A DNA stretch of 64,000 bases from contig OZ287753.1 of assembly GCA_965649765.1 (NCBI GenBank), positions 77,872,001-77,936,000 of the forward strand. Reading direction: 5' to 3'. Position 1 is the first letter of the stretch, and each line of letters opens with the position of its first letter. This stretch comes from Bispira polyomma. Its lineage: Eukaryota. Both the position numbers and the translations under genes were made by a program. This document shows positions 5,779 to 38,000 of this stretch, in pieces. The notes beneath the pieces were generated by a model. The model saw nothing but the letters and a program-made list of their open reading frames with translations, was not told the origin of the DNA and searched no databases.

Positions 5779-8700
5779 ATGTCGGAAAACATTGATTGGA
5801 AGAAGTGCACAGTTGCAGAATTGAGGGATCACTGTACCAAATATGGACTGGTTGCAACGGGTAAAAAGCAGGAATTAGTGGACAGACTAGATGAACACAA
5901 GGCTAATGAAGTGGTTGATGTCAACGGTGAGTGACTTTAACAGTAGAAATACGAGAAATTCATAGTTGAACTTTTCAGTATGCGTGTTTTCGGCTTTTGT
6001 ATCAAAAATAATATGCAAGACCTTCATGGATTGGTTGAAACCAATTGAGCTGTCCAAAATGGAGGGTCCTAAACTGAGAGGTGTAAGATTTGTAAGTATT
6101 TAGTGGCTTATATCAACGTTAGTGTTATTTCTTACTGCGGCTGTATCTTTTTTTGAAAAGATGACTTTTTTTTTTTTGTGTTGTTATTGTGCATCAACAT
6201 CTTGCAGGAATATAGGTATGGCCTGTGTATATGTCTCAGTTCCAGTATGCTTGTGGGTAAGTTGGCAGTAAACTTGCTGTCTCACCTTAAATAAACTACA
6301 TAAAAATCTAAATATTGGAAGCCTTATCATCAGTGCAGTTTGGTTCTTCGTTTTGCAAATAACATTATAAATCCAATTAGACTTGCTTACAAGTCTTTAC
6401 TGTTGGTGAAGCACTGTATGACTGCATTTTAAACAGTTCCTATTCCATTCAAAAGGTGTCAGCACTGGTGTTTCTATAACTGCCAGCTTCTTTATTTTAT
6501 CCCAAATGTAATCCACACAGGGATATAGAGTAAAAGTCATAATGCCCTCATTGAAGGACCTTGCACAAGGTCTACTCTAGTGGCTATGTTACCACTACAC
6601 ATGAACCTATTGTCCACAGTCTATTTGTACTTTGTTATTTAATAAATAATCAAAAACTAAAGGAGAAAGTTTACATATAATTTAATGCTAGCTGGGGCCA
6701 GACAAAATGTATCCTGCTTATCTACTAAATAATAAATTGCTCTACCTTAAAGGATTTAACTCAAACTTGAAATTTAAAACTTTCATAGGATTAATTATGG
6801 CATTCATGTTTTCAACACTATTAATTTTTTTTTTTTTTAATGACTTTACTACTAAAACTTAAAACAGGTAACAAACATGCTGGCACATTTACAGCCCATC
6901 TCTTGTGTTTACTTTCCCTATCAACAGTATATGTTTCAACAAAAGCATGTAAGGTTAATGGTGAAGTCACCCACTTAGGCCCTTTTAGTTCTTTTAAAAA
7001 CAAGCATGTGGTTTTACTGTTGTCATATAAACAGTATGGGATTTGTGAGTTATACTAAACAGACTGGCAGTCAAAAAAGTTGAGTACGTAATTATTTTTT
7101 CACCGATAGGTGGCTCCATGTATTCCAGGTGAGTGAACAAGGTCCTTCAATCCACACAGGGATATAAGAGTAAAAGTCATAATGCCCTCATTGAAGGACC
7201 TTGCACAAGGTCTAAAATCCAATATGTCCATAGCTTGTGTTTCTTGTTACATTAGACAAAATTCTACTGAAGCCAACAGGGGCGAAAATTCGCAGTCGCC
7301 AAATCGCCAGTGGCGACTTTATTCCGATAAGGACGAGTAAAACGTTTTTCGGGGTCGCCCGGCTGGTGATTTAGATTTAGAGGCGAAAAGACGAAAGCCG
7401 TTTTTGAAGAAGCTTGCTTACTTCCGGTTTTCGCGATGGCTAAACGAAACCACTACACAAATAAAAAACGCATTTTAATTGCTTCAATGCGTGAGCAATA
7501 TACAGGATTCGAAGTCCACGTGTTCTGCAACGTTTTAAAGCAATAAAATACCTTTTATCGGCTTTATTTTATAACATTTCCTTCAATCGCGGATTCGGCA
7601 ATTTGTAAACAAAACAACCAAATATCTCACTCTGCGCAGCTTCTAAAATATTAAACTACAGTGACTGTTTGTCTGCTACATTTTCATTGGTTCAAAATTG
7701 AGGAGTTGTCCTGTGACAACCTGTCAACGACTAGCTTTCTTCTAGCAAATTCCAAGCGCCACCTAGCGAGTGGATTTGTTACCACATAAAAAAATAGTGT
7801 ATAATTTATTCAAACCCTAGCAACCATAAAGGGGAAGTTTTCGTTCTTTGTATTGCACATCAGATGCATTTATCAGACAGCATATATGGTGTGATCTACT
7901 TCCAATATACTTTTTGAAGAATATAAGCCATTTTTATTTGATGAATTTTTATATTGGCTAAATTGCTTACTTTTGTCCCCCATTTGAAATTACATTCCCC
8001 CAGTTTTTCAGTGACAGTGGGTGAGTGCCCCAACATTTTGAAATTCCTAGAATGGACACTGCATATTATATATGGACTTATGGTGAATTTTATGGAAAGA
8101 TACTGGAGTAAGGATTAAGGAATCTAAAATTGGCCACTGTATCTGAAATTGGCCATCTAGAAAATGTTGTGTTTTTGGTAATATTGTGGGTAATATTTGC
8201 TAAAATCAAGATTTTTGTGACTATTTAGTCTTACTTAACCACATTCCAGTTATATTTCACCAGTTTTTATTGATTTAGCTTAACTTTTAGAGGTGGCCAA
8301 TTTCAGATACAGTGGCCAATTTTAGATTCTTTACTCTAAATAGTCCTGATTTTTTTATCATGGATACCGTAATGGCGTATCAGAATTAGAAAATTTGAAG
8401 GGCCACTAAATATTTATACGGGCCACTAAAGTGTAAAAGATACTGGCCCTGCTGGCCACCTTCAGTTTCCAACGAGTCTATGCCCCTGAGCCAATTAAGT
8501 ATCAGTGTGTGAGAGCATCCTGGGGAAGATGTGAACACGCCATTGCGTACTGATAACAATGTAGGCTATGCTGCCGGACACGTGATTGGTTTATTGATAG
8601 AGGTTTTGATTGAAAAGATACCTCACATTTCAATAAATCACATTAACAGTATAACATACAATAATTAAGTCGATGCTCAATACTAATAGCATATAATAAA

Positions 8701-11700
8701 TTCACTCCCCATTGTTTTTTGTGTGGTGTAGAAGAAGCCATGGAAGAAGAGGTGAATGGGGGTGACATGCCCGCAGAGGAGGCGGGGCAGGCTGATGAGG
8801 AGGAGGAAGCAGTGGTCAAGGAAGAGATGGACGTCAAGGAGGATGACGTGAAACAGGAGAAGGAGGAAGAGGAGGTGGAGGAGAAGAAGGAAGAGAAAAA
8901 GGAAGGTCAGCAAAACTTTCTAGTGTTTGATGTGGATTATTGGAAAAAAAGTAGGGGTGAGTCCTGTTACTTGATTAGGGAAAGCGGAGTGAAATTTGCG
9001 ATTCGGTTACTCAAAAATGTGTATGTTTTAAGTTAAAACTCTAATATTATTACCTGTAGTTATAAATGGCTTCAAAACAATAATGTAGGTCTTATTCCTG
9101 CAGGTAATATACTTTTTCCTGTTAATTTCCAATATTCACCAAAGTATTTGGCTTTATTTTTCAATAGATTTCGTTTACATCAGCCGTCAAACTGTTAGAC
9201 TGGTTTCTGAGATTAGGGCATATTAAATTTGCTGGTATCCAGATTTGAAACGGTTTGGTGTTAGCGATTGCTCGGCCGCATTTTCAGTGCCCGCCTCACC
9301 CCCTAAAAATTACCCTTGACAAACCAGTATCTAAAATTCGCCACCCCCTAAAAATATAAGCCAAATTACAATAAAGTGGCGACAAAGCTGCAATTGAGAT
9401 AAAGGCAAAATAGTCACAAAAATCTCAATTTTTCAGCCAATATTACCTACAATTTTACCCCAAAAAGAACATTTTATAGGTGGCGAAGTTTAGATACAGT
9501 ATATCGAATTTTAGATTCCTTACTGTAGTGCCGCTGCCACACTCGCTACTTCCCATACTATTGCTGGCAGGACATGAATCTGGCAAATGTCGAAAGTAAA
9601 TTTGGGATCTTATAGCACATGCATAACACGTAATACACTTTACTAACCTTTTTACACTAATTTCCATGTCTTTTTTTGCCTCGTTATTTACTACTGATTT
9701 TGGTAGATATTTCAAACATAATTGACAGTCCCTTGCTTCATTTCCGTTGGTTACACAGGAACTTATGGGAGAATGCCACCCAGCAAATGTATCTGGGATC
9801 ATACAGTATTTCATATTTGCCATTTTCCTCAGAAAAGGCGCCATGTTTTTTTTTATTTTGATGAAGTGAAGTAGTAAGAATATGTTAAAAACTGAAAATA
9901 ATCTTGTTATTTGTGACTGATAATCTATCATTATTGGTACTCGTTCGGCAAACGTGGGCGATATTCAGCCGAAAATTGCTCTAGCAAGCGTCGGTACTTA
10001 AAATACAAACATTTTACCACGATTGGGGGCATATAAACACACAAAGACGAAGTCTGGGTGTTTCTACAACTCCCAAGAGTGGGGATAACATGTTTACAAT
10101 CCCTGGCTAGGAATGAGTTATTGTCATTCAAAACCCGACAAACTAAAACTTTTACCTGAATCTGTTTTTACTTAGTAATGGTATTGCTTTACTGTGAGAA
10201 ACTAATTAACTAGACATAAGAAATATTGTGGGGGAAATAGTTTCGGGCCGTTCCAACGGTATAATTATAGATTTTAGTCACTTCATCATACTTTATAACC
10301 AATTAAAATTGGTGACGCAAGTTAGTCATAAGACCCTCTTATTAACTGAATATGGTGAGGTTCTTTCAGATAAAAGTGAGTTTATGAAATTAAGTCATGT
10401 TTAAACCCTTAAAAAAAACAATAATTTGGGAGAGTAAGAGATTGTTTGTGTGATTAAAGAGATGTTTGAACAGTAAGTGTTGATTTTGTATCAGTACTTC
10501 ATGGGTTGATATACATGTTACAGGCAATCTGTCAAAGTAGTCATTACACATAAAAATTTCACTGATTTTCCTTAATGCCTTTGACCACTAGTCATTACGA
10601 GTAATGAATAAGGTTTGTGGTCTATAATAAGACAAATTGCTTGAATAGCAATACTACATTATGTGTGATGGTATTACAACTAATATTTCCCCACTGGAAG
10701 CTTTCTGTGCAACAGGTGCAGCGCCAAAAACTCAAGACTGTGCGCCCGAGTCAAAAACGGGAAGCCGTTTACTCGCGAAGTCTTTCTTCTAACACACATA
10801 CATTACAATAATCCATACATAAACCTGAAATTCCATATAATTAAGACACCAAAACTTAATATTTTCACCAATTGCCACCCCTTTCTTTAGTAGCCACGGT
10901 AACTTGTCAACAAACAGCCTCGTTAGGGTTAGGGTTAAATATTTTTTAGCGTGTACTCTGCCAGAGCCTTTAGCCGTCACCCAGGCATATCCAGAGGAGG
11001 AAGAGAGTGACCTGGAAAGCCTGTCCGGTGATGAGGCGGCAGCTCTTGCCCAGAGGAAGAGAAGGCCCAAGGTCCACGTCAGCCTGGGGGATGAGGCGGA
11101 GGAAGTACTTGCCCAGTTCCTCAAGGAGAACCCCATCTTCTACTGCAAGCGTTTGAGGGACTACAAGAACACAGAGAAGAAGAGGCGTCTCTGGGCCGAG
11201 CAGGCTGCGGCTCTGGGGGTGACTATGAGACACCTGGATATCTGGTGGCGGTCCATGAGGACCAGATACGGGAAACTGACCCGAACCACAACCGCGTCGG
11301 GATCTGTAACCAGAGAACGAACTGAGAGGGACCAGTGGATCCTGACAAAGTTGGAGTTCCTGAAGGGCAACATTGCCCGCCATGTCCGCCGGGTCGGCTC
11401 AAATGTAAGTATCATTTTGAACAAGATTTGCATTGATTTGTAACTGGTTTTGTTTTCATCAGATTTGTACAGAAAAGTAATTGAAAGAGTAAATTGAAAG
11501 TAATTGAAGATAGTCTCTAAACAGTGTTATTCAGTAAAATTGTCTAGTATTTTGTTTTGCATGTAATAATACTTTTTCAGCACAGTCCAGAAGTTGCAAA
11601 CATTTTTCAGATCCATTTCTTTTCATTCCAGTGCAGAATTTGAAAATTGTATTATTTTGTAGATTCGTTTATTGCTACAAAGTTTGTTAAATTTTTGCCC

Positions 11701-14700
11701 ATTACCTTAACTACTAGTTATATGCGCAAGTAAATTTCATCGATTTCTGTTTTCGCAGATTGTGGTATTTTCGCTCATGGCAGACTGGTCCCTACAGGCT
11801 AGCACAGTCCCCATATTAATAGCTGGCACTATCTTACACAAGCACCCACAGCATGTTTTGTATTAGCAGGAAGTTATATTTTCATTTCTGCCCCGTAACC
11901 AGTGGGATTCTTCTGATGTAGGTGCTAGGCCACTTCTTTTAGGCAGCAGAGTATGCAGCCTGTTGGCCCGCTTCCATTCTCATCACTAATGTTGTTGTTC
12001 AATGTTTTTATTATTACAGCTCGTTAGGCCACAGACCTCCACCCTTGTCTCCAGCCAGTCTGCAACCCCACACATGATTCCACCGATTAAGCCTTCTCGG
12101 CCTAATCTGGGCCCTAACCCTCCTGTAGCCCGCCAGGCCTCAACTCACTCTGCTGCAAGGTGTTGGAGGACATCTGGGGAGAGTGAAGACCTACTGCAGG
12201 GGATGCATGAATATGTAGAGGCGAACAACCACAGCCAAGAACGTGTGGCCCAGATGCTGAGCATGCCATTAGCAGATCCACAAGACCCCCGGGAGTCGTG
12301 GGGGCGCTGGCTGATTGCTAGCGCTCGTATGAAAATACACCCCAGTCTTTGGATCCGTTTTGAGGAGGAAGTGAGCAAGACCTACTTCCATTATGCGTTG
12401 GAAAGTGCGGCACTGTATGAGCGCCAGGAACAGGCGCAGACAACACACCCACAGCAGCCAGGCAGTGCCTCCCCATCCCACGTGACACCGGCACCGGGTC
12501 GTCAACCACAGGTCCACAGTACCACACGTTGAGTTTGTCATCCACAGTAACACACCCTTCCTCAAGGGTTTGTCGACCACAGGTCCCCAGTACCACAAGT
12601 CGAAGAGCATTCCCAGCCTGATCATGTGGGCACCTGCCTCAAGGGTTTGTCAACCACAGGTCCACAGTTCCTCAAGGGCCCCTGCTTGGTGACGTCATCA
12701 CCATAGTGAAAAGTGGTATCATGATACTGACATTTTTCTACAGACTACTTAATCATGTCCCCCCCCCTCCCCCCCCCATATCATTTATAAATTGCTATCA
12801 AATTAGCTAAATTGTGCATTAAATTTTGTGGCTTGCATGCAAGTACCTGAAACACAAAGTCTAACAATATCACAATTTCAAAACTGTTCTCATGATAACT
12901 AAACTTAATACTTTCTCTCGATGATAAGATGATATTGCCATATATGATGACCTTGTGCGGGTGGTGCCAGAGACTGTTGATATATATCTTTGTTGGTTTG
13001 TTTTTTCCTCAGCCATTGTAACTTTGAGAAATAAACCAATGTTTTAAATGTCTGCCTGTACATTACCAGAAAAGGACTTGTTGGCCCTCTCTTCCTACAT
13101 ACCAAAAAACATAGAAACTTAAAAATGTAGAATCTAAAAATTACCACAGTACTTGACATCTTGCGCTTCCGACCCAATAAACAGAATTGAACAAAAGTTT
13201 AATGTATAATTTTTGAACTTGTGGGAAGAGTAAGGTACCAAGATGTCACAGGTCACCACTTGGTATCTTTAAATTTTATCTTTTCCACTACACGTTAAAA
13301 ACACTAAAAAAAAAAAGCCAAGAAAGATGAGAGATAGAATGAAAACAAATATAGTGCCCACAAAATGTAGGCTGGAAAAGGTAACGTACCAACAGACCAT
13401 ACATCACAGCAAACCAAAGCTCTAATATTGTTTTGGGAAGATATATTGGCCCTGACATCTTCAGTAACTTCTTTCGGTTGGCAGGTATTAAAAATCTGGG
13501 CATTTAGGCAGCTGCCAGTGCCACCCTCGTCCACCCATACAAACTTATTTGTGTTAATCATATCACGACTGGCAGTTTCATTGGTAGGGTAAAGCAGTTT
13601 AACTAACTGCCAACTTTCCCACTTAAAGCCCCGATCGTGATTCGAACCGGGACCATATAGAGGTGGGAGGCTATAATGTAATGGAAGCCCACAAAAACCT
13701 TATGAAGCAATTATCGTTTATACTACTGCCTGAGTCAGTATCTCTTTGCACATGAATACCTTTTTTACAGTATCAGAGTATCGGCTACTAACTTTAGAAA
13801 AAATTAAAACCTTTAGTTAATAATATTACCCACAGCAACAAGCCACTTGGGGTTCTTGTCCCAAAAAAACCATTTACACAGTTAAACAACATCTGGTACA
13901 AAAAGAAATACTGTACACTATTGAGTGGTAAGTTGGCAAAACAAGAAGTTCTTTCATAATACACAAAATGGATGATTGGATGACATTTAATATGTGTGAC
14001 ATTAAAATCTAATTGCTAGTGAACCTATTGGTGTGTGAAATAAACAACTGTACACTATGTCAAATGGTGTTCTAGCAATCTCAAAAAGACCGGTGCCATA
14101 TAGTATAATATGTGATAACTCGTTTGGACTACCAAGTAGATTAATTTCCGGTGTACGAGTACTTGTGTTATGGTACCTGTAATGTTGCAGAATGAAAAAA
14201 CTGAAGTATAAATTAATCCAAATGACTAAACATTTTAGTGGTGCGTAATGACCAGTGGTCACAGGCATTACTCAAAATGACTGAAAGATCTAGCAGTTTA
14301 TAATACGTTCATGTAATATTTGCCCCAGTTTACTCCAGTTCTGACCAGGTCACACAAGTTCTAAGCAGTTTAAGCCCCGTTTACACAAGTTTTGAGCAGT
14401 TCAACCCCCATGTATGCCCTGTTTATGCCCATTTCCTCCAGTTCTCTCAAGATGTGCTTTCAGAGCCGATCATCCTTGGAAGTTTATGCCCAGTTTACAC
14501 AAGTTTACTCCAGTTCACACACATTCTCAAAACGGGGACCGAGAACGTTGACAGTGTGAATGCCTCGTAACGTAGATGTTAAACTGAAACTTTTCCCAAA
14601 TTCTGTCCTGATCTATGTGTACAATGAGAATAGCTATAATTAGAGGGCATTTTGAGTTCCTTACTGAAAGTTCAAGTTGGTAACCAGAAGCCTGTTCAAC

Positions 14701-17700
14701 CAGGTGTAGGTTGGTTTCTTTAGGTCAGTGTAAACTAAATTTTGAAACCGTTTACTTTAAAGTAAAATGCTTAGAACAAATATGTAATTGAACAGAACTG
14801 CAAACAATTACTTTTTTTCAGTGTCATTGAAAATGTAAACCACATGCGATCAAGTGTCTACAGAAATAGATATATGTGCCACACAACATAGAAATATGAG
14901 AAAGTTTTCTTTGTCAAAACCAAAAAACTAGTTGTCCATTTTACACCTGTGTGCCAACTCTTTCAATGTGCACATGGACTAATCTACCTTTGACATGTCC
15001 AACACAATTCAGTGCTTTGTTTTGGCAAGTTTTCTTGTATAAATGAGACATACTTAAGGATCTTTGTTGTTCATTTGTATTTCACCAAATTACTCTAACC
15101 AGTTAATAACCAGTTGTCGGTTGATTTCAACAACCAACAACCGGCTTAAGAAAATCATAACCCAACTTCATCTCTAATGAAAGTGCTGTTAAAACTTGCT
15201 AATATAATGTATAAATTGACATAACAAATTTCCGCTTAACAGAGTTTCACTATTCTTGAAGATGTATTGTCAGATTCCATTGTGAGTAAACTATTAATTT
15301 TTAACTGATTTTCCTTTGTATATTTTTTAGAACCAATAATGGTGCTCCGGGGAAAGTTCCACTTCTGTAAGTATACATTTAATATCGGAATACGTGACTT
15401 TATGGAAGCCTTTATTCACCCAGTTGCTTTCTTTTGGGTAAGATGTGTCTGTTCTGTGAATGGTGAAAACTTTTAGGGTGTGTACAGTGAAAATCTGCAG
15501 TGTATTACTGCAAAATAACTTTCTGTCAGGACCTCAGAAGTATGTATTTTGGGTAGGAAATGCCTAGGCAAAATAGAACGTAATCTAGTTTTCAGAGCTT
15601 TTCATACTGTCTGGTTTGGATGTGACCTGATATGCGCTAAAAGCATGTTGTAAATATAAAGATGTGGCACTTGAGCGCTCCTAGTAAATAGAATTGTGAC
15701 CAAAGCAAACGTGTTCCTTGAACTGTAAATTATTCTTGAGATCCTACAGATTTGATCTTAGTGGTGTAGATTTTGATTACAGTGTGTGTAGTTATATGCA
15801 TAAAGTTGAAGACCTGTGTGGCTCTAAGCATTGCTGGTGTAATTTACTCCAGATCCGCCAAGTTGCAATATGTCTAAATGTTCGTTCTCTTGAAGGAATA
15901 TGTAAATGTCCAAAAAAATTTCATTTTTTGTCATATTAACTATGAAGTTATACAAAGGAAATTCTAATATAAATAAAAACAAACTTTTTCAGGTATCTAT
16001 CAATATTTTTTTAGTTGAAATTGGTCCTTTCCTTTCGTATACTGATGTATGTATAAATCCGCGCAGTCCATAATGATAATGCATGCAAATAATGGTTGCA
16101 GCTTCAGTCATGGCCCAAAAGTAAACTCTTGTTTATAATTATGTCTCCAGATTACAACATTAACCACGCTCTGAAGATGGTGATCATCAAACCGTTTAAA
16201 GAAGACCTGCTGGGAAAGCCCGAGTTAACAAAGTGGTGCAAGCAGGCCAAACACTTTGATATCCAGAAGCTAGAGGATGGATACAGGTACATGCTTGCAG
16301 GATAAACTCTAATCTTATAGAGGGGCTGCGGGCAGCATAGTGGTTACAAGTGTTTGCTGCACAATCACTGGCCTCTCACAAATGTAGGGTTTAAATCCTG
16401 TTTGTTCCTTCGTGTGGGAAAGTTTTGTCGGGTACTTGCCGTAGGTCGATGGATTAGAGCACTTCAGCACTGGTTTCATTCACCATTGAACCTGGCTATC
16501 GTGTTATGACCTAAGATGTTGAAAGCCACATGGAAATAAAGCTAAATTCAAATCCAAATATTTAATTTTATGACTAATTATATTTCCACCCTCTCCAAAA
16601 TTCATAGGTTTCTACTGCTTTACACTAAAGTGCCTCTTTTATTTGATAAACCTTCTAAATATCCAAACAAAATCATGTTCTCCCAACGTGTCCTGAATAT
16701 ACTACTATTTTTTAGATTCTGTCACTTTATAAAAGTTCGTATTTACACAAAAGTTTTCTACTTTTTTTTTGTCAAAACGAAGTATCTTTAGCTATTTGTT
16801 TAATATTAGTTGTGTGTAGTTTTGATTGTTTGGTTAATAGAAGCTCTATACATATTTTTCTCCATAGCGAGGCTGTCTTGTACTTTGACACAATAGCCAA
16901 GGGTGATGGGGCTTTCGCAGAGTTCAAGGCCACCATCGAGAGTGAGGAGGTGAAGGTCATTCACCCTGCGGCGGCTGATACGGGTATAGCCGCCAACTCT
17001 GTCAGTATTAGTGCAGGACAGTACTGTAAGTTGGATTTTTGTTTTAAGGAAAAACAGAGTGCCTTTTTTTTATTCTTTAGGATGTTTTCTAGTTCCCTAG
17101 TAGTGGGTAAATTATGTTGTACAAATGTGTTATGAGACCAATATTAGGCTAGTACTAGAAGTCAGATTTTGGTTTGAGAAAAAGAAAGTAACTTTTCCTA
17201 TTTTCGAGTGGTAGGTACATTATTTATGGGTCCTTGAATCAATAATCAAAGTGAAAATTCTTTCCATATTGGAGCAATACAACCAAGTAACGGATCGGAT
17301 TTAGACGATGTGGAATTAATTCTGAAGTTTTAGAAATTAAAATAGTAAGTGTATTTGTGACCATTCAGTTTACCTTTTGTAAATGACTAATGGTTCTAAT
17401 TTAAGCAAGAATTCTGCCTTTGAATCACAAGCATTGATAACTTACAATGTGTAACGCATTAAGTTGTGTCACTTATCATCAAAACCTATTTTGTAATAAA
17501 CATGTGTGCAGGACAAAAGTCGCTTTCTTTGACTCCTAGTTTGTTTATTCTGATAGAAGATTATTGATTCATGAGTAGATATGATATGGAGAAAATAAGA
17601 CTACTTAATCTATTATTTGCAAGCAGAGTTTATAAATTTTTTTTTTGCTATTTGTAGCATGTGACTTGCCATTACTTTTCACAAGAACCTAATTTGTTCA

Positions 17701-20700: not shown

Positions 20701-23700
20701 GTGTAAAAGTGCTTGTCACTAGGTTTTCTCAGAAAGTATTCATCATAGCTCAATGAAATTTGGTATGTACCTTGGTAAGGCAATTTTCAGGACGGGAGAC
20801 GCGTAACTTTTAAAGAATAGCCTGAATTTTTATTTATTTTTTACCCCATCCAAAAATATGCGATCGTTACTGAGATAAAACGATTTCAATTTCAAAAATT
20901 TTAAAAATTAAGGGTTTTTTTTAAAACGTCAATTATCTCTGAAACGGTGCTAGATAGAGCGATTTCGAGCTCATTTTCGACCCACAGGGTTGATTTTGTT
21001 TATATGTAAACTTTCACGAAATTTTCAATTTTGGCGGCCATCTTGAATTTCTGCGTCTTTTTTTTCGAAAATGTCCAATATCTCGGAAACAGTGCTAGAT
21101 AGAGCGATTTTGAGCTCATTTTTGATCTACAGGGTTGATTTTGCTTATATGTCAACTTTCAAAAAAATTTTCAATTTTGGCGGCCATCTTGAATTTCTGT
21201 GTCTTTTTCGAAAATGTCAGTTATCTCGGAAACGGTGCTAGATAGAGCGATTTCGGGCTTGTTTTCGACCCACGGGGTTGATCTTGCTTATATGTAAACT
21301 TTCAAAAAAAATTTCAATTTTGGCGGCCATCTTGAATTTCTGCGTCTTTTTCGAAAATGTCAAATATCTCAGAAACGGTGCTAGATAGAGCGATTTCGAG
21401 CTCATTTTCGAACCCAGGGTTGATTTTGTTTTTTGTAAACTTTCAAAAAAATTTTCAATTTTGGCAACCATCTTGCATTTCTGCATCTTTTTCGAAAATG
21501 TCCGTTATCTCAGAAACGGTGCTAGATAGAGCGATTTCGAGCTCATTTACGGCTCACAGGGTTGATTTTGCTTAGGTGTAAACTTTCAAAAAAATGTCCA
21601 ATTTTGGCGGCCATCTTTAATTTCTGGGTCTTTTTCGAAAATGTCCTTTATCTCGGAAACGGTGCTAGATAGAGCGATTTCGGGCTTGTTTTCGACCCAC
21701 GGGGTTGATCTTGCTTATATGTAAACTTTCAAAAAAATTTTCAATTTTGGCGGCCATCTTGAATTTCTGCATCTTTTTCGAAAATGTCAAATATCTCAGA
21801 AACGGTGCTAGATAGAGCGATTTCGGGCTTGTTTTCGACCCACGGGGTTGATCTTGCTTATATGTAAACTTTCAAAAAAAATTTCAATTTTGGCGGCCAT
21901 CTTGAATTTCTGCGTCTTTTTCGAAAATGTCAAATATCTCAGAAACGGTGCTAGATAGAGCGATTTCGAGCTCATTTTCGAACCCAGGGTTGATTTTGTT
22001 TTTTGTAAACTTTCAAAAAAATTTTCAATTTTGGCAACCATCTTGCATTTCTGCATCTTTTTCGAAAATGTCCGTTATCTCAGAAACGGTGCTAGATAGA
22101 GCGATTTCGAGCTCATTTACGGCTCACAGGGTTGATTTTGCTTAGGTGTAAACTTTCAAAAAAATGTCCAATTTTGGCGGCCATCTTTAATTTCTGGGTC
22201 TTTTTCGAAAATGTCCTTTATCTCGGAAACGGTGCTAGATAGAGCGATTTCGGGCTTGTTTTCGACCCACGGGGTTGATCTTGCTTATATGTAAACTTTC
22301 AAAAAAATTTTCAATTTTGGCGGCCATCTTGAATTTCTGCATCTTTTTCGAAAATGTCAAATATCTCAGAAACGGTGCTAGATAGAGCGATTTCGGGCTT
22401 GTTTTCGACCCACGGGGTTGATCTTGCTTATATGTAAACTTTCAAAAAAAATTTCAATTTTGGCGGCCATCTTGAATTTCTGCGTCTTTTTCGAAAATGT
22501 CAAATATCTCAGAAACGGTGCTAGATAGAGCGATTTCGAGCTCATTTTCGAACCCAGGGTTGATTTTGTTTTTTGTAAACTTTCAAAAAAATTTTCAATT
22601 TTGGCAACCATCTTGCATTTCTGCATCTTTTTCGAAAATGTCCGTTATCTCAGAAACGGTGCTAGATAGAGCGATTTCGAGCTCATTTACGGCTCACAGG
22701 GTTGATTTTGCTTAGGTGTAAACTTTCAAAAAAATGTCCAATTTTGGCGGCCATCTTTAATTTCTGGGTCTTTTTCGAAAATGTCCTTTATCTCGGAAAC
22801 GGTGCTAGATAGAGCGATTTCGGGCTTGTTTTCGACCCACGGGGTTGATCTTGCTTATATGTAAACTTTCAAAAAAATTTTCAATTTTGGCGGCCATCTT
22901 GAATTTCTGCATCTTTTTCGAAAATGTCAAATATCTCAGAAACGGTGCTAGATAGAGCGATTTCGAGCTCATTTTCGAACCCAGGGTTGATTTTGTTTTT
23001 TGTAAACTTTCAAAAAATTTTTAATTTTGGCAACCATCTTGCATTTCTGCATCTTTTTCTAAAATGTCCGTTATGTCAGAAACGGTGCTAGATAGAGCGA
23101 TTTCGAGCTCATTTACGACTCACAGGGTTGATTTTGCTTATATGTAAACTTTCAAAAAAAATTTCAATTTTGGCGGCCATCTTGAATTTCTGCGTCTTTT
23201 TCGAAAATGTCAAATATCTCAGAAACGGTGCTAGATAGAGCGATTTCGAGCTCATTTTCGAACCCAGGGTTGATTTTGTTTTTTGTAAACTTTCAAAAAA
23301 AATTTCAATTTTGGCAACCATCTTGCATTTCTGCATCTTTTTCGAAAATGTCCGTTATCTCAGAAACGGTGCTAGATAGAGCGATTTCGAGCTCATTTAC
23401 GACTCACAGGGTTGATTTTGCTTAGGTGTAAACTTTCAAAAAAATGTCCAATTTTGGCGGCCATCTTGAATTTCTGGGTCTTTTTCGAAAATGTCTGTTA
23501 TCTCGGAAACAGTGCTAGATAGAGCGATTTCGAGCTCATTTTCGATCTACAGGGTTGATTTTGCTTATATGTCAACTTTCAAAAAATTTTCAATTTTGGC
23601 GGCCATCTTGAATTTCTGTGTCTTTTTCGAAAATGTCTGTTATCTCGGAAACGGTGCTAGATAGAGCGATTTCGAGCTCATTTTCGACCCTGATGGTTGT

Positions 23701-35058: not shown

Positions 35059-38000
35059 CTATTTCTTACCTCTGCCTCCTCCTTTTTTCCCTCCTTTTTT
35101 CCCTCCTTTCTTTCCCCCACCCTTCCTTCCCCCACCCTTCATTCCCTTGGCTTTGCCCCCACCACGCCTACGTTTTTTCTTGGGTGCTTTTCCTTTCTTT
35201 TTGCCACCTTTCTTTCCACCTTTCTTTTTACCTTTCTCGCCTTTTCCTCTGCCCTTTTTTCCTTTACCTGCCCCCTTGGCCCGCCCTTTGCCAGCACCCT
35301 TACCCCTGGCCGCCCCACCCCGACCACCTCTCCCCTGTGACCCCCCTCTACCGCCTCTCCCCTGTGACCCCCCTCTACCACCCCTCCCACGTGACCCCCC
35401 TCTACCACCCCCTCTTCCCGCACCTCCTCCCCGGGCTACTCCACCACGCCCTCCTGGCTTAGCTACAGCTCCCCGACCCCCACCTACACCTCTACCACCT
35501 CCTGCACCCCTACCACGTCCTGCACCTCTACCACCTGGAGCACCTTTCCCACCTGGAGCACCTTTCCCACCAGGAGCACCTTTTCCACCTGGAGCACCTT
35601 TTCCACCTTCTTTACCACCACCTTTACCTTTTCCATCCTTGCCTTTCCCATCCTTACCTTTGCCTTTCCCATCCTTACCTTTGCCTTTCCCATCCTTACC
35701 TTTGCCTTTCCCATCCTTGCCTTTCCCATCCTTACCTTTGCCTTTCCCATCCTTACCTTTACCTTTCCCCTTGTCTTTGCCCCCCCCTTTCCCACCTTCA
35801 CCTCCTCCATCCCCACCGTCCCCTCCGTCATCATTGCCTCCACCCCCGCCCTGTCCTTGTATCAGGTCCTTGATCTCCTTTGCTGTACCCAACATCTCCA
35901 TAAGCCTGAGGGGCTTCTCCTCCTCTTTGGCTTGTTCCAGCCTTGGATCTGGGTTGGCTGGATACCTGGACTTGTGGTACTGTGGTGTGCCGTACCTCTG
36001 GCTACCATGTGGTGGTACCCTTTGGGATGTAGAGGCTCCGGAAGGATGATGATGGCCAGCAGAAGTCCCTTGATGAGGGCCACCACCCTGATGACCACCA
36101 TATGGTTGACCATACATGCCTTGACCACTCGCACCAGTTTGACCATACCTCTGTACTGCATTCTGACTTTGTCCTGGATGACCAGCTTCAGGTCGTGCTC
36201 CTTGACCATAACTATGGACACCTGCTGGACTATTTGCAGCAACTTGAACATGGGCGTCATGGCGATTCGGACCATGAGCTTCCTGCGGATAGCTTCCATG
36301 TTGACGAGGGTGATCATCTGATCTTCCGAATGGCGTGTTAGTGCCGTATTGGTCTCTAGGTCGGGAATCTTTACCATAGAGGATTCTCTCCGTGAGAGCA
36401 CTGGTCAGAGCACCAGTGACTTCACCGAGAATACCTGTGCACACATGAATAGATAGTGGAACCTCTATTATCTGAACAGACTCACATATGCTGGCTACTA
36501 CCATATTTGGGGTATACTGACAAATCAAACTGATTGGCAATTTTTATTTATTAATCAAAGATGTTTTTGTTACTGTAATGTACAAATTATTTTGCCTAAT
36601 TTTAACACCGGACTGTATAATTCATTAATTGCAGATCCATTTTTAGGGCAAAATATAGTATATTTTGCACAAAGGAGGACATAATACCAGAAATCGTTTG
36701 AGATTGCCGACGGCCTTATTGTGGGTAAATTGTTTGTCCACATCTACAAGTTTCATTGTTTCGGTTTCACAGGTGCTTATATTGATAAGGGACAAGATAC
36801 ACATATCAATATTATAAAATAAACATATCTTATTTTAGAGCAGGTCTGATGTTCTTCTGTATTTGATCAAACTAACACCTTTCCTCATCCTAGTATAACA
36901 TTTTACAGTGGTTTTTACTTGTAAATCCAAATATGTTGTTCATTGTCAATATATTGAATCAAACATTTAGAAAAATCTAACTGAAATAGATTGCTACATG
37001 CATGCAAAACGTGCTGAGTAATTATTCAGAAAATCATTCATGAATTTTCATTACTCCAAGTTACAAATCTTTCATATCTTTTCTGTACAAACCCTACCTC
37101 TTGTTTGTCCAGGCTGATAAAGTCTGCCGCCATAACCATCTCCGTCATATGGTCTCTCTACAACAAAATAAGACATTGGAAGATTGTAACTACACCCCAG
37201 ACGGGACAGCATCAAGTGTAGTAAATAAGACATTGGTAGATTGCAACTACACCATAGCTGTGACAGCCTCAAGTGTAGTAAATAAGACACTAATAGATTG
37301 CAACTACACCCTAGCTGGGACAGCATCAAGTGTAGTAAATAAGACACTGGTATATTCTAACTACACCCTAGCTGGGACAGCATTAAATGTAAATAAGACA
37401 CTAATAGATTGTAACTACACCCTAGCTGGGACAGCATCAAATGTAGTAAATAAGACACTGGTAGATTGTAACTACACCCTAGCTGGGACAGCATCAAATA
37501 AATTACACATTGTCATGTCTTTCTATCTCTGTGTATCTGTATTAGTGAAATAAATATATGACAAAAAATAGATATAACTAGACCTAGCGCATCAGAGAAC
37601 AAGTGCATATTTGTATCCACCAGAAAGATGAACTACCCTAGGTAGCAAGTACCCTAGCTAGCACCTAAGCTAGAAGCATATGATTTCCTATAGCGCATTC
37701 ATGCTAAAGCCTTAAATGGCACAAGTGGGTTTCACATTGCAAAACTGTGGGACCAATAATAAGTGTGAGATAGGCACTTTAAAGTTTGGCCTATCCGTTT
37801 GACCTTGCAAATGACCTTGAACGAGGGGCTCAAGGCCAAATCGTACCACATCAAAAGATTCCCAGGCCATGATTTCTTATAGGTTGGTTTTACATCCATA
37901 TCTTGTTTGACCAAAAATAAGCGAGATATAGGCACTTTTAAGTTTGGCTATCCGCATTCAACCTTGAACGAGGGGCCCAAGGTCAAATCTGAGCACATCA

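What the first reader, a model, noticed from the sequence alone, without database searches (positions are those of the whole stretch)
8732..12532. Potential host-transposon fusion: SAP exons splice in frame onto an intronic Harbinger MADF gene
Seen: the MADF ORF lies in intron 2 of the SAP gene on the same strand and has no in-frame ATG before the domain. It begins at two phase-1 acceptors (ttttttag|CG at 10949/50; ctgccag|AG at 10964/5). Host exon 2 ends in phase 1 (GAA G|gt at 8905), so 8905>10950>11404>12020-12532 is an open SAP-acidic-MADF chimera of roughly 430 aa with an alternative 3' end. Established: host-transposase exon capture creates new chromatin regulators, and Harbinger MADF proteins have been domesticated (NAIF1-type). 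Inference: one locus could produce both a SAP-RRM and a SAP-MADF protein. Phase compatibility alone has a one-in-three chance, so this is a hypothesis.
Basis: partly seen in the sequence, partly recalled or inferred. Interest (0 to 1): 0.75.

Follow-up and report, generated by a model that had tools for sequence, protein, structure and literature searches.

The report
Host gene captures transposon MADF exons
An old, headless transposon DNA-binding gene sits intact inside a host gene's intron while all its close relatives examined are broken, so it likely survives as a spliced-on alternative ending that would give the host a new SAP-MADF chromatin protein; no RNA was available to confirm the splice.

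Summary
Observation confirmed: host exons 1-2 (SAP, acidic) join in frame to two MADF exons, giving 429 aa.

The MADF gene is a single-copy remnant of an old Harbinger. Its transposase is down to 30 decayed codons. Its ATG and about 35-40 N-terminal codons are gone, replaced by a fragment of an unrelated MITE that supplies the 10949/50 acceptor.

Intron, 3' UTR, transposase remnant and synonymous sites date the copy at about 12-19% divergence. Yet 321 codons stay open, while 0 of 37 old-family loci keep a whole exon. Neutral survival is about 1e-3 or less. Selection on the frame is likely; amino-acid constraint is weak (core dN/dS 0.13-0.6, exon 2 about 1).

No RNA run or orthologue was reachable, so the chimeric splice is untested. 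Best reading (0.55): a CSB-PGBD3-like alternative 3' end. Rivals: lucky or younger relic 0.20, recently decapitated standalone gene 0.13, new own first exon 0.12. The scan noted a similar MADF-in-intron case in another genome (e1-7597239, unchecked).

The parts
5779..5926 (+). Host exon 1 (coding part): ATG and SAP domain; phase-1 donor
   Evidence: PF02037 E 3e-10; 76% identical homologue P0151; donor score 10.7
8732..8905 (+). Host exon 2: acidic linker; phase-1 donor at 8905; a second in-frame donor at 8956
10739..10961 (+). Internal fragment of an unrelated ~350-bp TAA-flanked MITE family; supplies the phase-1 acceptor 10949/50, an out-of-frame acceptor at 10894, and the first 4 codons
   Evidence: 13% from the majority of 29 copies (copies 6%)
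10950..11404 (+). Predicted captured exon A: MITE-derived 11 nt, then Harbinger ORF1 from about codon 38 on (acidic stretch, basic KRRPK, MADF domain); donor GTAAGT shared with relatives
   Evidence: PF10545 E 7e-9; helical model, pLDDT about 95 or more over most of the core; junction mapped
11405..12019 (+). The element's own intron, with a locus-specific 310-bp nested repeat fragment at 11675-11984
   Evidence: sister copies skip 11675-11984; insert about 19% from the majority of 6 copies
12020..12532 (+). Predicted terminal exon B: P/S-rich linker, conserved C-terminal helical motif (BESS-like, lead only), stop
   Evidence: best-scoring AG of 432 in intron 2, but itself in the training set
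12724..12951 (+). Locus-specific nested repeat in the 3' UTR, after a 3-copy 71-77-bp tandem unit (12485-12676)
   Evidence: 19% from the majority of 19 copies, with a decay-type spectrum
13030..13035 (+). AATAAA poly(A) signal, also in the sister-copy majority
13456..13547 (-). Decayed 30-codon remnant of the element's DDE transposase, convergent with MADF
   Evidence: nhmmer E 9e-17; 9 window-specific replacement changes in 70 sites
16151..16286 (+). Host exon 3 (phase 1), the competing normal acceptor; the host frame stays open through 24511
   Evidence: host exon 4 is single copy

Best explanation
An old Harbinger transposon in intron 2 of a single-copy SAP-domain gene has lost its transposase and its MADF gene's start, and the remaining two MADF exons are likely spliced onto host exons 1-2 through a MITE-derived acceptor, which would make a 429-aa SAP-acidic-MADF protein as an alternative 3' end beside the normal product. 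Shown: the anatomy, the single copy, the age, the open frame, and the source of the acceptor. Inferred: a deletion soon after insertion fused the MITE to MADF codon ~38 and so created a phase-1 entry; selection has kept the frame since; the host promoter and ATG drive it; it ends at the element's own poly(A) signal. Inferred from family knowledge (recalled for SAP): the SAP domain binds AT-rich scaffold DNA or RNA, and the MADF domain reads the old element's subterminal motif. The chimera would then tether such sites to nuclear scaffold or chromatin, as a minor isoform.
For: Age. Window-branch divergence is 0.12 in the intron, 0.13 in the 3' UTR, dS 0.16 in the MADF core and dS 0.19 in exon 2; the transposase remnant shows 9 of 70 replacement sites changed. 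Three locus-specific nested fragments have no close donor in the assembly (best matches 85%, 76-85% and 77% over their main lengths). Frame. 321 codons have no stop, and the indels shared against sisters are multiples of 3. Sisters carry 17 stops in 972 codons and 106 non-triplet indels in 5855 coding bases. Of 37 old-family loci, 2 have a stop-free 106-codon core, and both are broken just outside it. Simulated neutral survival is 0.0013 or less at 10% divergence and 0 of 6000 at 13%. Same-element control: the transposase fell to 30 of at least 369 codons with invariant residues changed. No own start: relatives begin ATG-Pro in the same exon, the window lacks this, and no upstream homology was found. 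The first in-frame ATG is inside the domain. Acceptor 10950 scores 7.0 (rank 18 of 432; leave-one-out median of 12 model acceptors 6.2) and lacks the second AG found 4 nt downstream in 11 of 14 MITE copies. Internal splice sites and AATAAA are retained. The recognition helix shows 4 silent and 0 replacement differences from the sister majority (read from the alignment).
Against: No transcript or orthologue evidence exists either way. Amino-acid constraint is weak: core dN/dS is 0.13 by majority comparison but about 0.58 by three-point distances, and exon 2 is 0.9-1.1. The window keeps 20 of 23 widely conserved residues against 298 of 400 in broken copies (p 0.13). The window branch is about half the sisters' length even in the intron, so it may be younger than they are. 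The MITE fragment's substitution spectrum suggests a sister subfamily, so 13% overstates its age. The nested fragments lack their ends and could have been captured when already old. An out-of-frame acceptor (10894, score 6.7) competes, and 17 other AGs in the intron score higher than 10950. A possible 1-nt insertion at 12509 would alter the last 7 codons. The time of the decapitating deletion cannot be dated. The copy was picked because it is intact, from a family of at least dozens.
Confidence: 0.55

Rival explanations
1. A dead transposon relic. The frame is open by luck, or because this copy is younger than its neighbours suggest (a late or horizontally acquired lineage carrying already-old filler fragments). 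The in-frame acceptor is a coincidence of MITE sequence.
For: Exon 2 dN/dS about 1 and only mild constraint in the core; shortest branch among sisters (0.125 against 0.23-0.54); at 5% divergence survival is 0.002-0.03 and at 2% it is 0.09-0.24; the acceptor AG is ancestral to the MITE; thousands of MADF-like candidates in the genome (2658).
Against: The same element's transposase is deleted and decayed by about 13%; no close relative of any part in the assembly; contig depth over 11956-12409 equals that of unique neighbours (a weak measure); several non-triplet indels in its own intron against none in the aligned exons.
Confidence: 0.2
2. A standalone domesticated MADF gene (NAIF1/MSANTD-like) nested in the intron kept its frame under selection with its own promoter and ATG. 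It was decapitated only recently by the MITE-junction deletion, so it is now a young pseudogene.
For: Explains the old, intact frame without needing a splice; the deletion cannot be dated; only 4 MITE-derived codons are available to show constraint.
Against: Needs a long-kept gene to be lost just now and a good in-frame acceptor to appear by accident. The junction contig is among the deepest unique contigs in X1 and mid-range in X2 and X3, with no alternative form listed (weak, one study, possibly one individual).
Confidence: 0.13
3. A domesticated nested gene with a new first exon of its own: a promoter inside intron 2 and a short ATG exon (or a non-AUG start) spliced to 10950, independent of the host's SAP exons.
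For: Four short ATG...GT phase-1 candidates lie upstream (9574-9595, 10178-10193, 10397-10433, 10661-10739); same selection signal as the best explanation.
Against: Their donors score 5.0-5.3 against a median of about 9.5 for the model's donors; the strong intronic donors at 10354, 10375 and 10472 have no in-frame ATG; host transcription already runs through this DNA on the same strand.
Confidence: 0.12

Closest known systems
CSB-PGBD3 (Newman et al. 2008, PMC2268245; abstract and section list seen)
   Same: A transposon gene inside a host intron acting as an alternative 3' terminal exon, joined in frame to the host's N-terminal exons, beside the normal product.
   Different: There the whole piggyBac transposase is captured, and RNA, protein and 43 Myr of conservation are shown. 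Here it is the Harbinger accessory DNA-binding gene in two exons, headless, with an acceptor from another element; the splice is unobserved.
Host-transposase fusion genes such as KRABINER and SETMAR (Cosby et al., 10.1101/2020.05.07.082677; passages seen, supplements closed)
   Same: Intronic insertion, fusion by alternative splicing, a TE DNA-binding domain joined to a host chromatin domain, parental isoform kept.
   Different: That survey covers tetrapods and transposase domains, with splice sites provided by the captured transposon. Its main text has 0 occurrences of 'Harbinger', 'PIF' or 'Myb'; its tables could not be seen. Here the acceptor comes from a second MITE and the host domain is SAP.
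Domesticated Harbinger Myb-like/MADF genes: NAIF1, MSANTD1-4 (PMC9392472; passages), insect APM/LPM genes (PMC9710019; passages)
   Same: Single-copy Harbinger ORF1 derivative without recognisable TIRs.
   Different: Those are standalone genes, often co-domesticated with the transposase and under clear purifying selection across species (LPM2 dN/dS 0.18). Here there is no own ATG, the transposase is destroyed, and constraint is weak outside the core. The word 'fusion' did not occur in either main text.
MADF-BESS transcription factors (recalled; Drosophila Adf-1/CP60 class)
   Same: N-terminal MADF plus a C-terminal helical motif; ESM Atlas neighbours of exon 2 are BESS clusters at score 0.86.
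   Different: Pfam BESS is not hit, a score under 0.9 is a lead only, and a SAP N-terminus is not part of that family.

Membership tests
PIF/Harbinger transposon (origin) | MADF/Myb-like ORF1 | tested here: met
   PF10545 E 7e-9, over cut-off; helical HTH-type model
PIF/Harbinger transposon (origin) | Convergent DDE transposase gene | tested here: met
   Only as a 30-codon remnant in the window; remnants beside relatives L130, L138, L140, L141, L193, L195, L203, L204
PIF/Harbinger transposon (intact element) | Terminal inverted repeats with a 3-bp target duplication | tested here: not met
   The only candidate pair (10557-10599/14244-14286) is two copies of an unrelated repeat; no homology to sisters upstream of 10961
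PIF/Harbinger transposon (active family) | Near-identical dispersed copies | tested here: not met
   Best other DNA matches 64-79%, apart from short conserved stretches; 40 of 46 candidates scored
Host-transposon fusion gene | TE domain on exons separate from host-domain exons, same strand, in frame | tested here: met
   (sequence level only)
Host-transposon fusion gene | Chimeric transcript observed | not testable with these tools
   No RNA holder listed; the three runs laid are genomic-type contigs
Host-transposon fusion gene | Purifying selection on the captured domain | tested here: inconclusive
   Frame retention is strong; core dN/dS 0.13-0.58 and exon 2 about 1, within-genome comparison only
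Host-transposase fusion gene (Cosby sense) | Captured domain is from a transposase and uses that transposon's own splice acceptor | tested here: not met
   The captured gene is ORF1; the acceptor is from an unrelated MITE
Standalone domesticated Harbinger Myb-like gene (NAIF1/MSANTD type) | Own start codon and first exon | tested here: not met
   ATG and about 35-40 codons missing; only weak ATG mini-exon candidates
Standalone domesticated Harbinger Myb-like gene (NAIF1/MSANTD type) | Syntenic orthologues in other species | not testable with these tools
   No relative genome held; best protein match 49%
MADF-BESS | C-terminal BESS motif (PF02944) | tested here: inconclusive
   No Pfam hit; Atlas lead 0.86; motif shared with P0014, E 1e-5

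The most novel reading that the evidence does not exclude
A new invertebrate chromatin regulator was built from three sources: the host's SAP-acidic exons, a splice acceptor from one MITE, and the decapitated MADF gene of a different Harbinger. The deletion that killed the transposon gene's own start is what put it in frame. The SAP-MADF isoform still reads the extinct family's terminal motif and tethers those dispersed sites to nuclear scaffold.
Probability: 0.3. Interest if true: 0.78.

Novelty: new variant of a known kind. Interest (0 to 1): 0.56.

Why it matters
The host-transposon fusions in the papers I saw are vertebrate genes that capture a transposase through the transposon's own splice site. 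If the splice is real, this case extends the route to an invertebrate, to the Harbinger accessory DNA-binding gene, to a SAP host domain, and to an acceptor lent by a second element. It would also be caught at an early stage: frame protected, sequence still drifting, parental isoform intact. A full-text search for 'SAP domain' with 'MADF' found 0 papers, and none of 55 long MADF homologues scanned carried SAP. One RT-PCR or RNA-seq look would settle it.

Tried and rejected
No RNA holder listed; the three runs laid were DNA-like contigs, and no presence/absence joint across the element was among the rows shown (15 of 373 joints shown). This is no evidence on expression, and the runs are one study, at most two samples.

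Orthologue searches were blank: word-index searches with the MADF exon, longer and near lengths; a full scan of 50% representatives gave at most 49% identity; a metagenome scan found nothing; a SAP-exon scan found one unrelated 39% hit. P0151 (76% to exon 1, on a 390-kb contig) shows a relative exists, but its DNA could not be fetched.

Rejected: the 43-bp inverted pair as TIRs; 10964/5 as the main acceptor (score 2.9); the acceptor as the Harbinger's own exon trap; translation from the first internal ATG, which would cut the domain.

mis-mapped columns and was discarded. The third repeat crashed and was not dated. The host model downstream of 24511 is incomplete (2 stops remain). Foldseek gave no match at E 0.001 or better, only weak homeodomain HTH rows. 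Host exon 7 had no PDB match. Earlier scan notes by place and by sequence were empty. Tree-based branch dN/dS was not obtained; majority and three-point estimates were used and they disagree (0.13 against 0.58).
Full report
OBSERVATION. The window lies in a 1.035-Gb, 75-contig animal genome. The host gene has a SAP exon at 5779-5926 (PF02037, E 3e-10), an acidic exon at 8732-8905, and further exons from 16151; my model stays in frame through 24511 and is incomplete beyond. Exon 4 is single copy (1 match among 6 candidates). An RRM is suggested only by a nucleolin match at E 0.014. Intron 2 holds a MADF domain (PF10545, E 7e-9) on the same strand, with no in-frame ATG before codon 92. Exon 1, exon 2, 10950-11404 and 12020-12532 give 429 aa; 10965 gives 424; a second donor at 8956 and exon 1 alone are also in frame; the acceptor at 10894 is not.

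ORIGIN. A protein search of the genome scored 150 of 2658 MADF-like candidates. At least eight of the more distant ones have a convergent DDE_Tnp_4 gene within about 2-5 kb (read by eye). The closer family (44-60% identity) has transposase remnants beside several copies. The window keeps a 92-bp remnant at 13456-13547 on the minus strand (E 9e-17) of a frame of at least 369 codons. So this is Harbinger ORF1. No TIRs were found; the one inverted pair belongs to another repeat. At DNA level the MADF exon is single copy: best other matches are 64-79%, apart from conserved stretches of 54 bp or less (40 of 46 candidates scored).

THE 5' END. Relatives start ATG-Pro in the same exon. In the window, homology to sister copies begins at 10961, so about 35-40 codons, the ATG and all upstream element DNA are missing. 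Directly upstream lies an internal fragment (10739-10961) of a ~350-bp TAA-flanked MITE family. The 10949/50 AG is MITE sequence: 14 of the 15 copies retaining this part (of 29 aligned) have it. Eleven of those 14 have a second AG 4 nt further on, which the window lacks. A small matrix trained on 12 predicted acceptors (11 host, 1 MADF-internal; none RNA-verified) scores 10950 at 7.0, rank 18 of 432 intronic AGs, against a leave-one-out median of 6.2. The out-of-frame 10894 scores 6.7, and 10965 scores 2.9.

AGE. Sister copies that share the intron lack a 310-bp insert at 11675-11984 and about 400 bp in the 3' UTR. The three nested fragments differ by 13%, about 19% and 19% from their family majorities (typical copies 6%, 13%, 8%), and none has a close donor in the assembly. 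Three-point distances put the window's own branch at 0.12 (intron), 0.13 (3' UTR), dS 0.16 (core) and dS 0.19 (exon 2). The transposase remnant has 9 window-specific replacements in 70 sites and 1 silent change in 17, polarised with one close copy. Against this dating: the MITE fragment's spectrum looks like a sister subfamily rather than pure decay; the fragments lack their ends and may have been old when captured; the alignment was seeded from the window; and the window's branch is about half its sisters' (0.125 against 0.23-0.54).

FRAME. All 321 codons are open, both internal splice sites and AATAAA are kept, and the indels shared against sisters are multiples of three. One possible 1-nt insertion lies at 12509, seven codons before the stop, in a poorly aligned tail. 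The 14 sisters compared (codon counts use only resolvable codons) carry 17 stops in 972 codons and 106 non-triplet indels in 5855 coding bases, some of them alignment noise. Of 37 old-family loci I held, 2 keep a stop-free 106-codon core, and both are broken just outside it. Simulated neutral survival is 0.002-0.03 at 5% divergence, 0.0013 or less at 10%, and 0 of 6000 at 13%. The copy was chosen for being intact among dozens to hundreds, which eats part of that margin.

AMINO ACIDS. The evidence here is weaker. Core dN/dS is 0.13 against the sister majority (sisters 0.27) but about 0.58 by three-point distances. Exon 2 is 0.9-1.1. The window keeps 20 of 23 widely conserved residues against 298 of 400 in broken copies (p 0.13); two of its three differences are family traits. 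The recognition helix differs from the sister majority by 4 silent and no replacement changes (read). The model is confident and helical (mean pLDDT 85.6), with only weak HTH matches. Exon 2 carries a motif shared with other MADF proteins and a BESS lead at 0.86.

WHAT COULD NOT BE SHOWN. No RNA holder was listed. The three runs cover introns as continuous contigs identical to the window across 9902-13229, with the junction contig at a depth like other unique contigs; this is one study and says nothing about expression. No orthologue was reached. None of 55 of the longer hits (of 150 listed) carries SAP.

MECHANISM. I put selection on the frame at about 0.8. Since the element's promoter region and ATG are gone and the first ATG is inside the domain, the simplest current reading is capture by the host. 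A deletion joined a MITE acceptor to ORF1 in phase 1, and the host pre-mRNA is sometimes spliced 8905>10950>12020 and cleaved near 13030, giving SAP-acidic-MADF beside the normal protein (0.55). That SAP binds scaffold-type DNA or RNA is recalled. That Harbinger Myb-like proteins bind a subterminal motif of their element is stated in PMC9710019 (passages). The tethering function is inference. Rivals: relic 0.20, recently decapitated standalone gene 0.13, new own first exon 0.12.

COMPARISON. It would work like CSB-PGBD3 (PMC2268245, abstract) and the host-transposase fusions of Cosby et al. (10.1101/2020.05.07.082677, passages; its supplements are closed and may list Harbinger-derived or SAP cases). 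It fails two features of that class: the captured gene is ORF1, and the acceptor is foreign. It differs from NAIF1/MSANTD (PMC9392472, passages) and insect APM/LPM genes (PMC9710019) in lacking its own start. Searches for 'SAP domain' with 'MADF' gave 0 papers. Searches on Harbinger/MADF fusion and exon capture (listings only, except PMC11893794, passages) showed no such case. One earlier scan note describes a similar MADF-in-intron arrangement in another genome (e1-7597239, unchecked); it led me to the Cosby paper.

VERDICT. Real anatomy, a probable domestication, and a plausible but unobserved fusion: new variant of a known kind, interest 0.56.

Noticed in passing
window 8956: A second donor 51 nt after the exon 2 donor scores higher (10.2 against 9.1) and is in frame to both 16151 and 10950, adding 17 residues.
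   Followed up: partly
window 21000-24000: Tandem array with a period of about 570 bp in the host intron after exon 7 (repeated translations at 21526, 22096, 22666).
   Followed up: no
window 10505-10660 and 14212-14293: Two decayed, oppositely oriented copies of a TA-flanked repeat built of short internal repeats; they mimic TIRs around the element.
   Followed up: yes
window 12485-12676: Three copies of a 71-77-bp unit; the MADF stop codon lies at the end of the first copy.
   Followed up: partly
window 13825-14172: A 350-bp high-copy repeat, 82-87% to the 39 other copies listed; not dated.
   Followed up: no
G000:C4:97.67-98.94 Mb (L013, L014, L018, L019); G000:C6:48.60-48.73 Mb and C5:33.17-33.29 Mb (L222-L229): Decayed MADF copies multiplied by local or segmental duplication, at regular 41-44-kb spacing in the C5 and C6 sets.
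   Followed up: no
P0151: SAP exon 76% identical to host exon 1 on a 390-kb public contig: a relative whose intron 2 could test the insertion's age.
   Followed up: partly
L144 and L147: A younger family with intact ~410-aa DDE_Tnp_4 frames; L144 also has a convergent 338-aa ORF that looks like a YqaJ-type exonuclease (label recalled, ISL2EU-like).
   Followed up: no
L124:8306-9901 (-): Overlapping ORFs resembling the reverse transcriptase and tyrosine recombinase of a DIRS-type element (label recalled).
   Followed up: no
window 35001-36000: Strongly C/T-skewed, 55% GC kilobase, probably a simple repeat.
   Followed up: no
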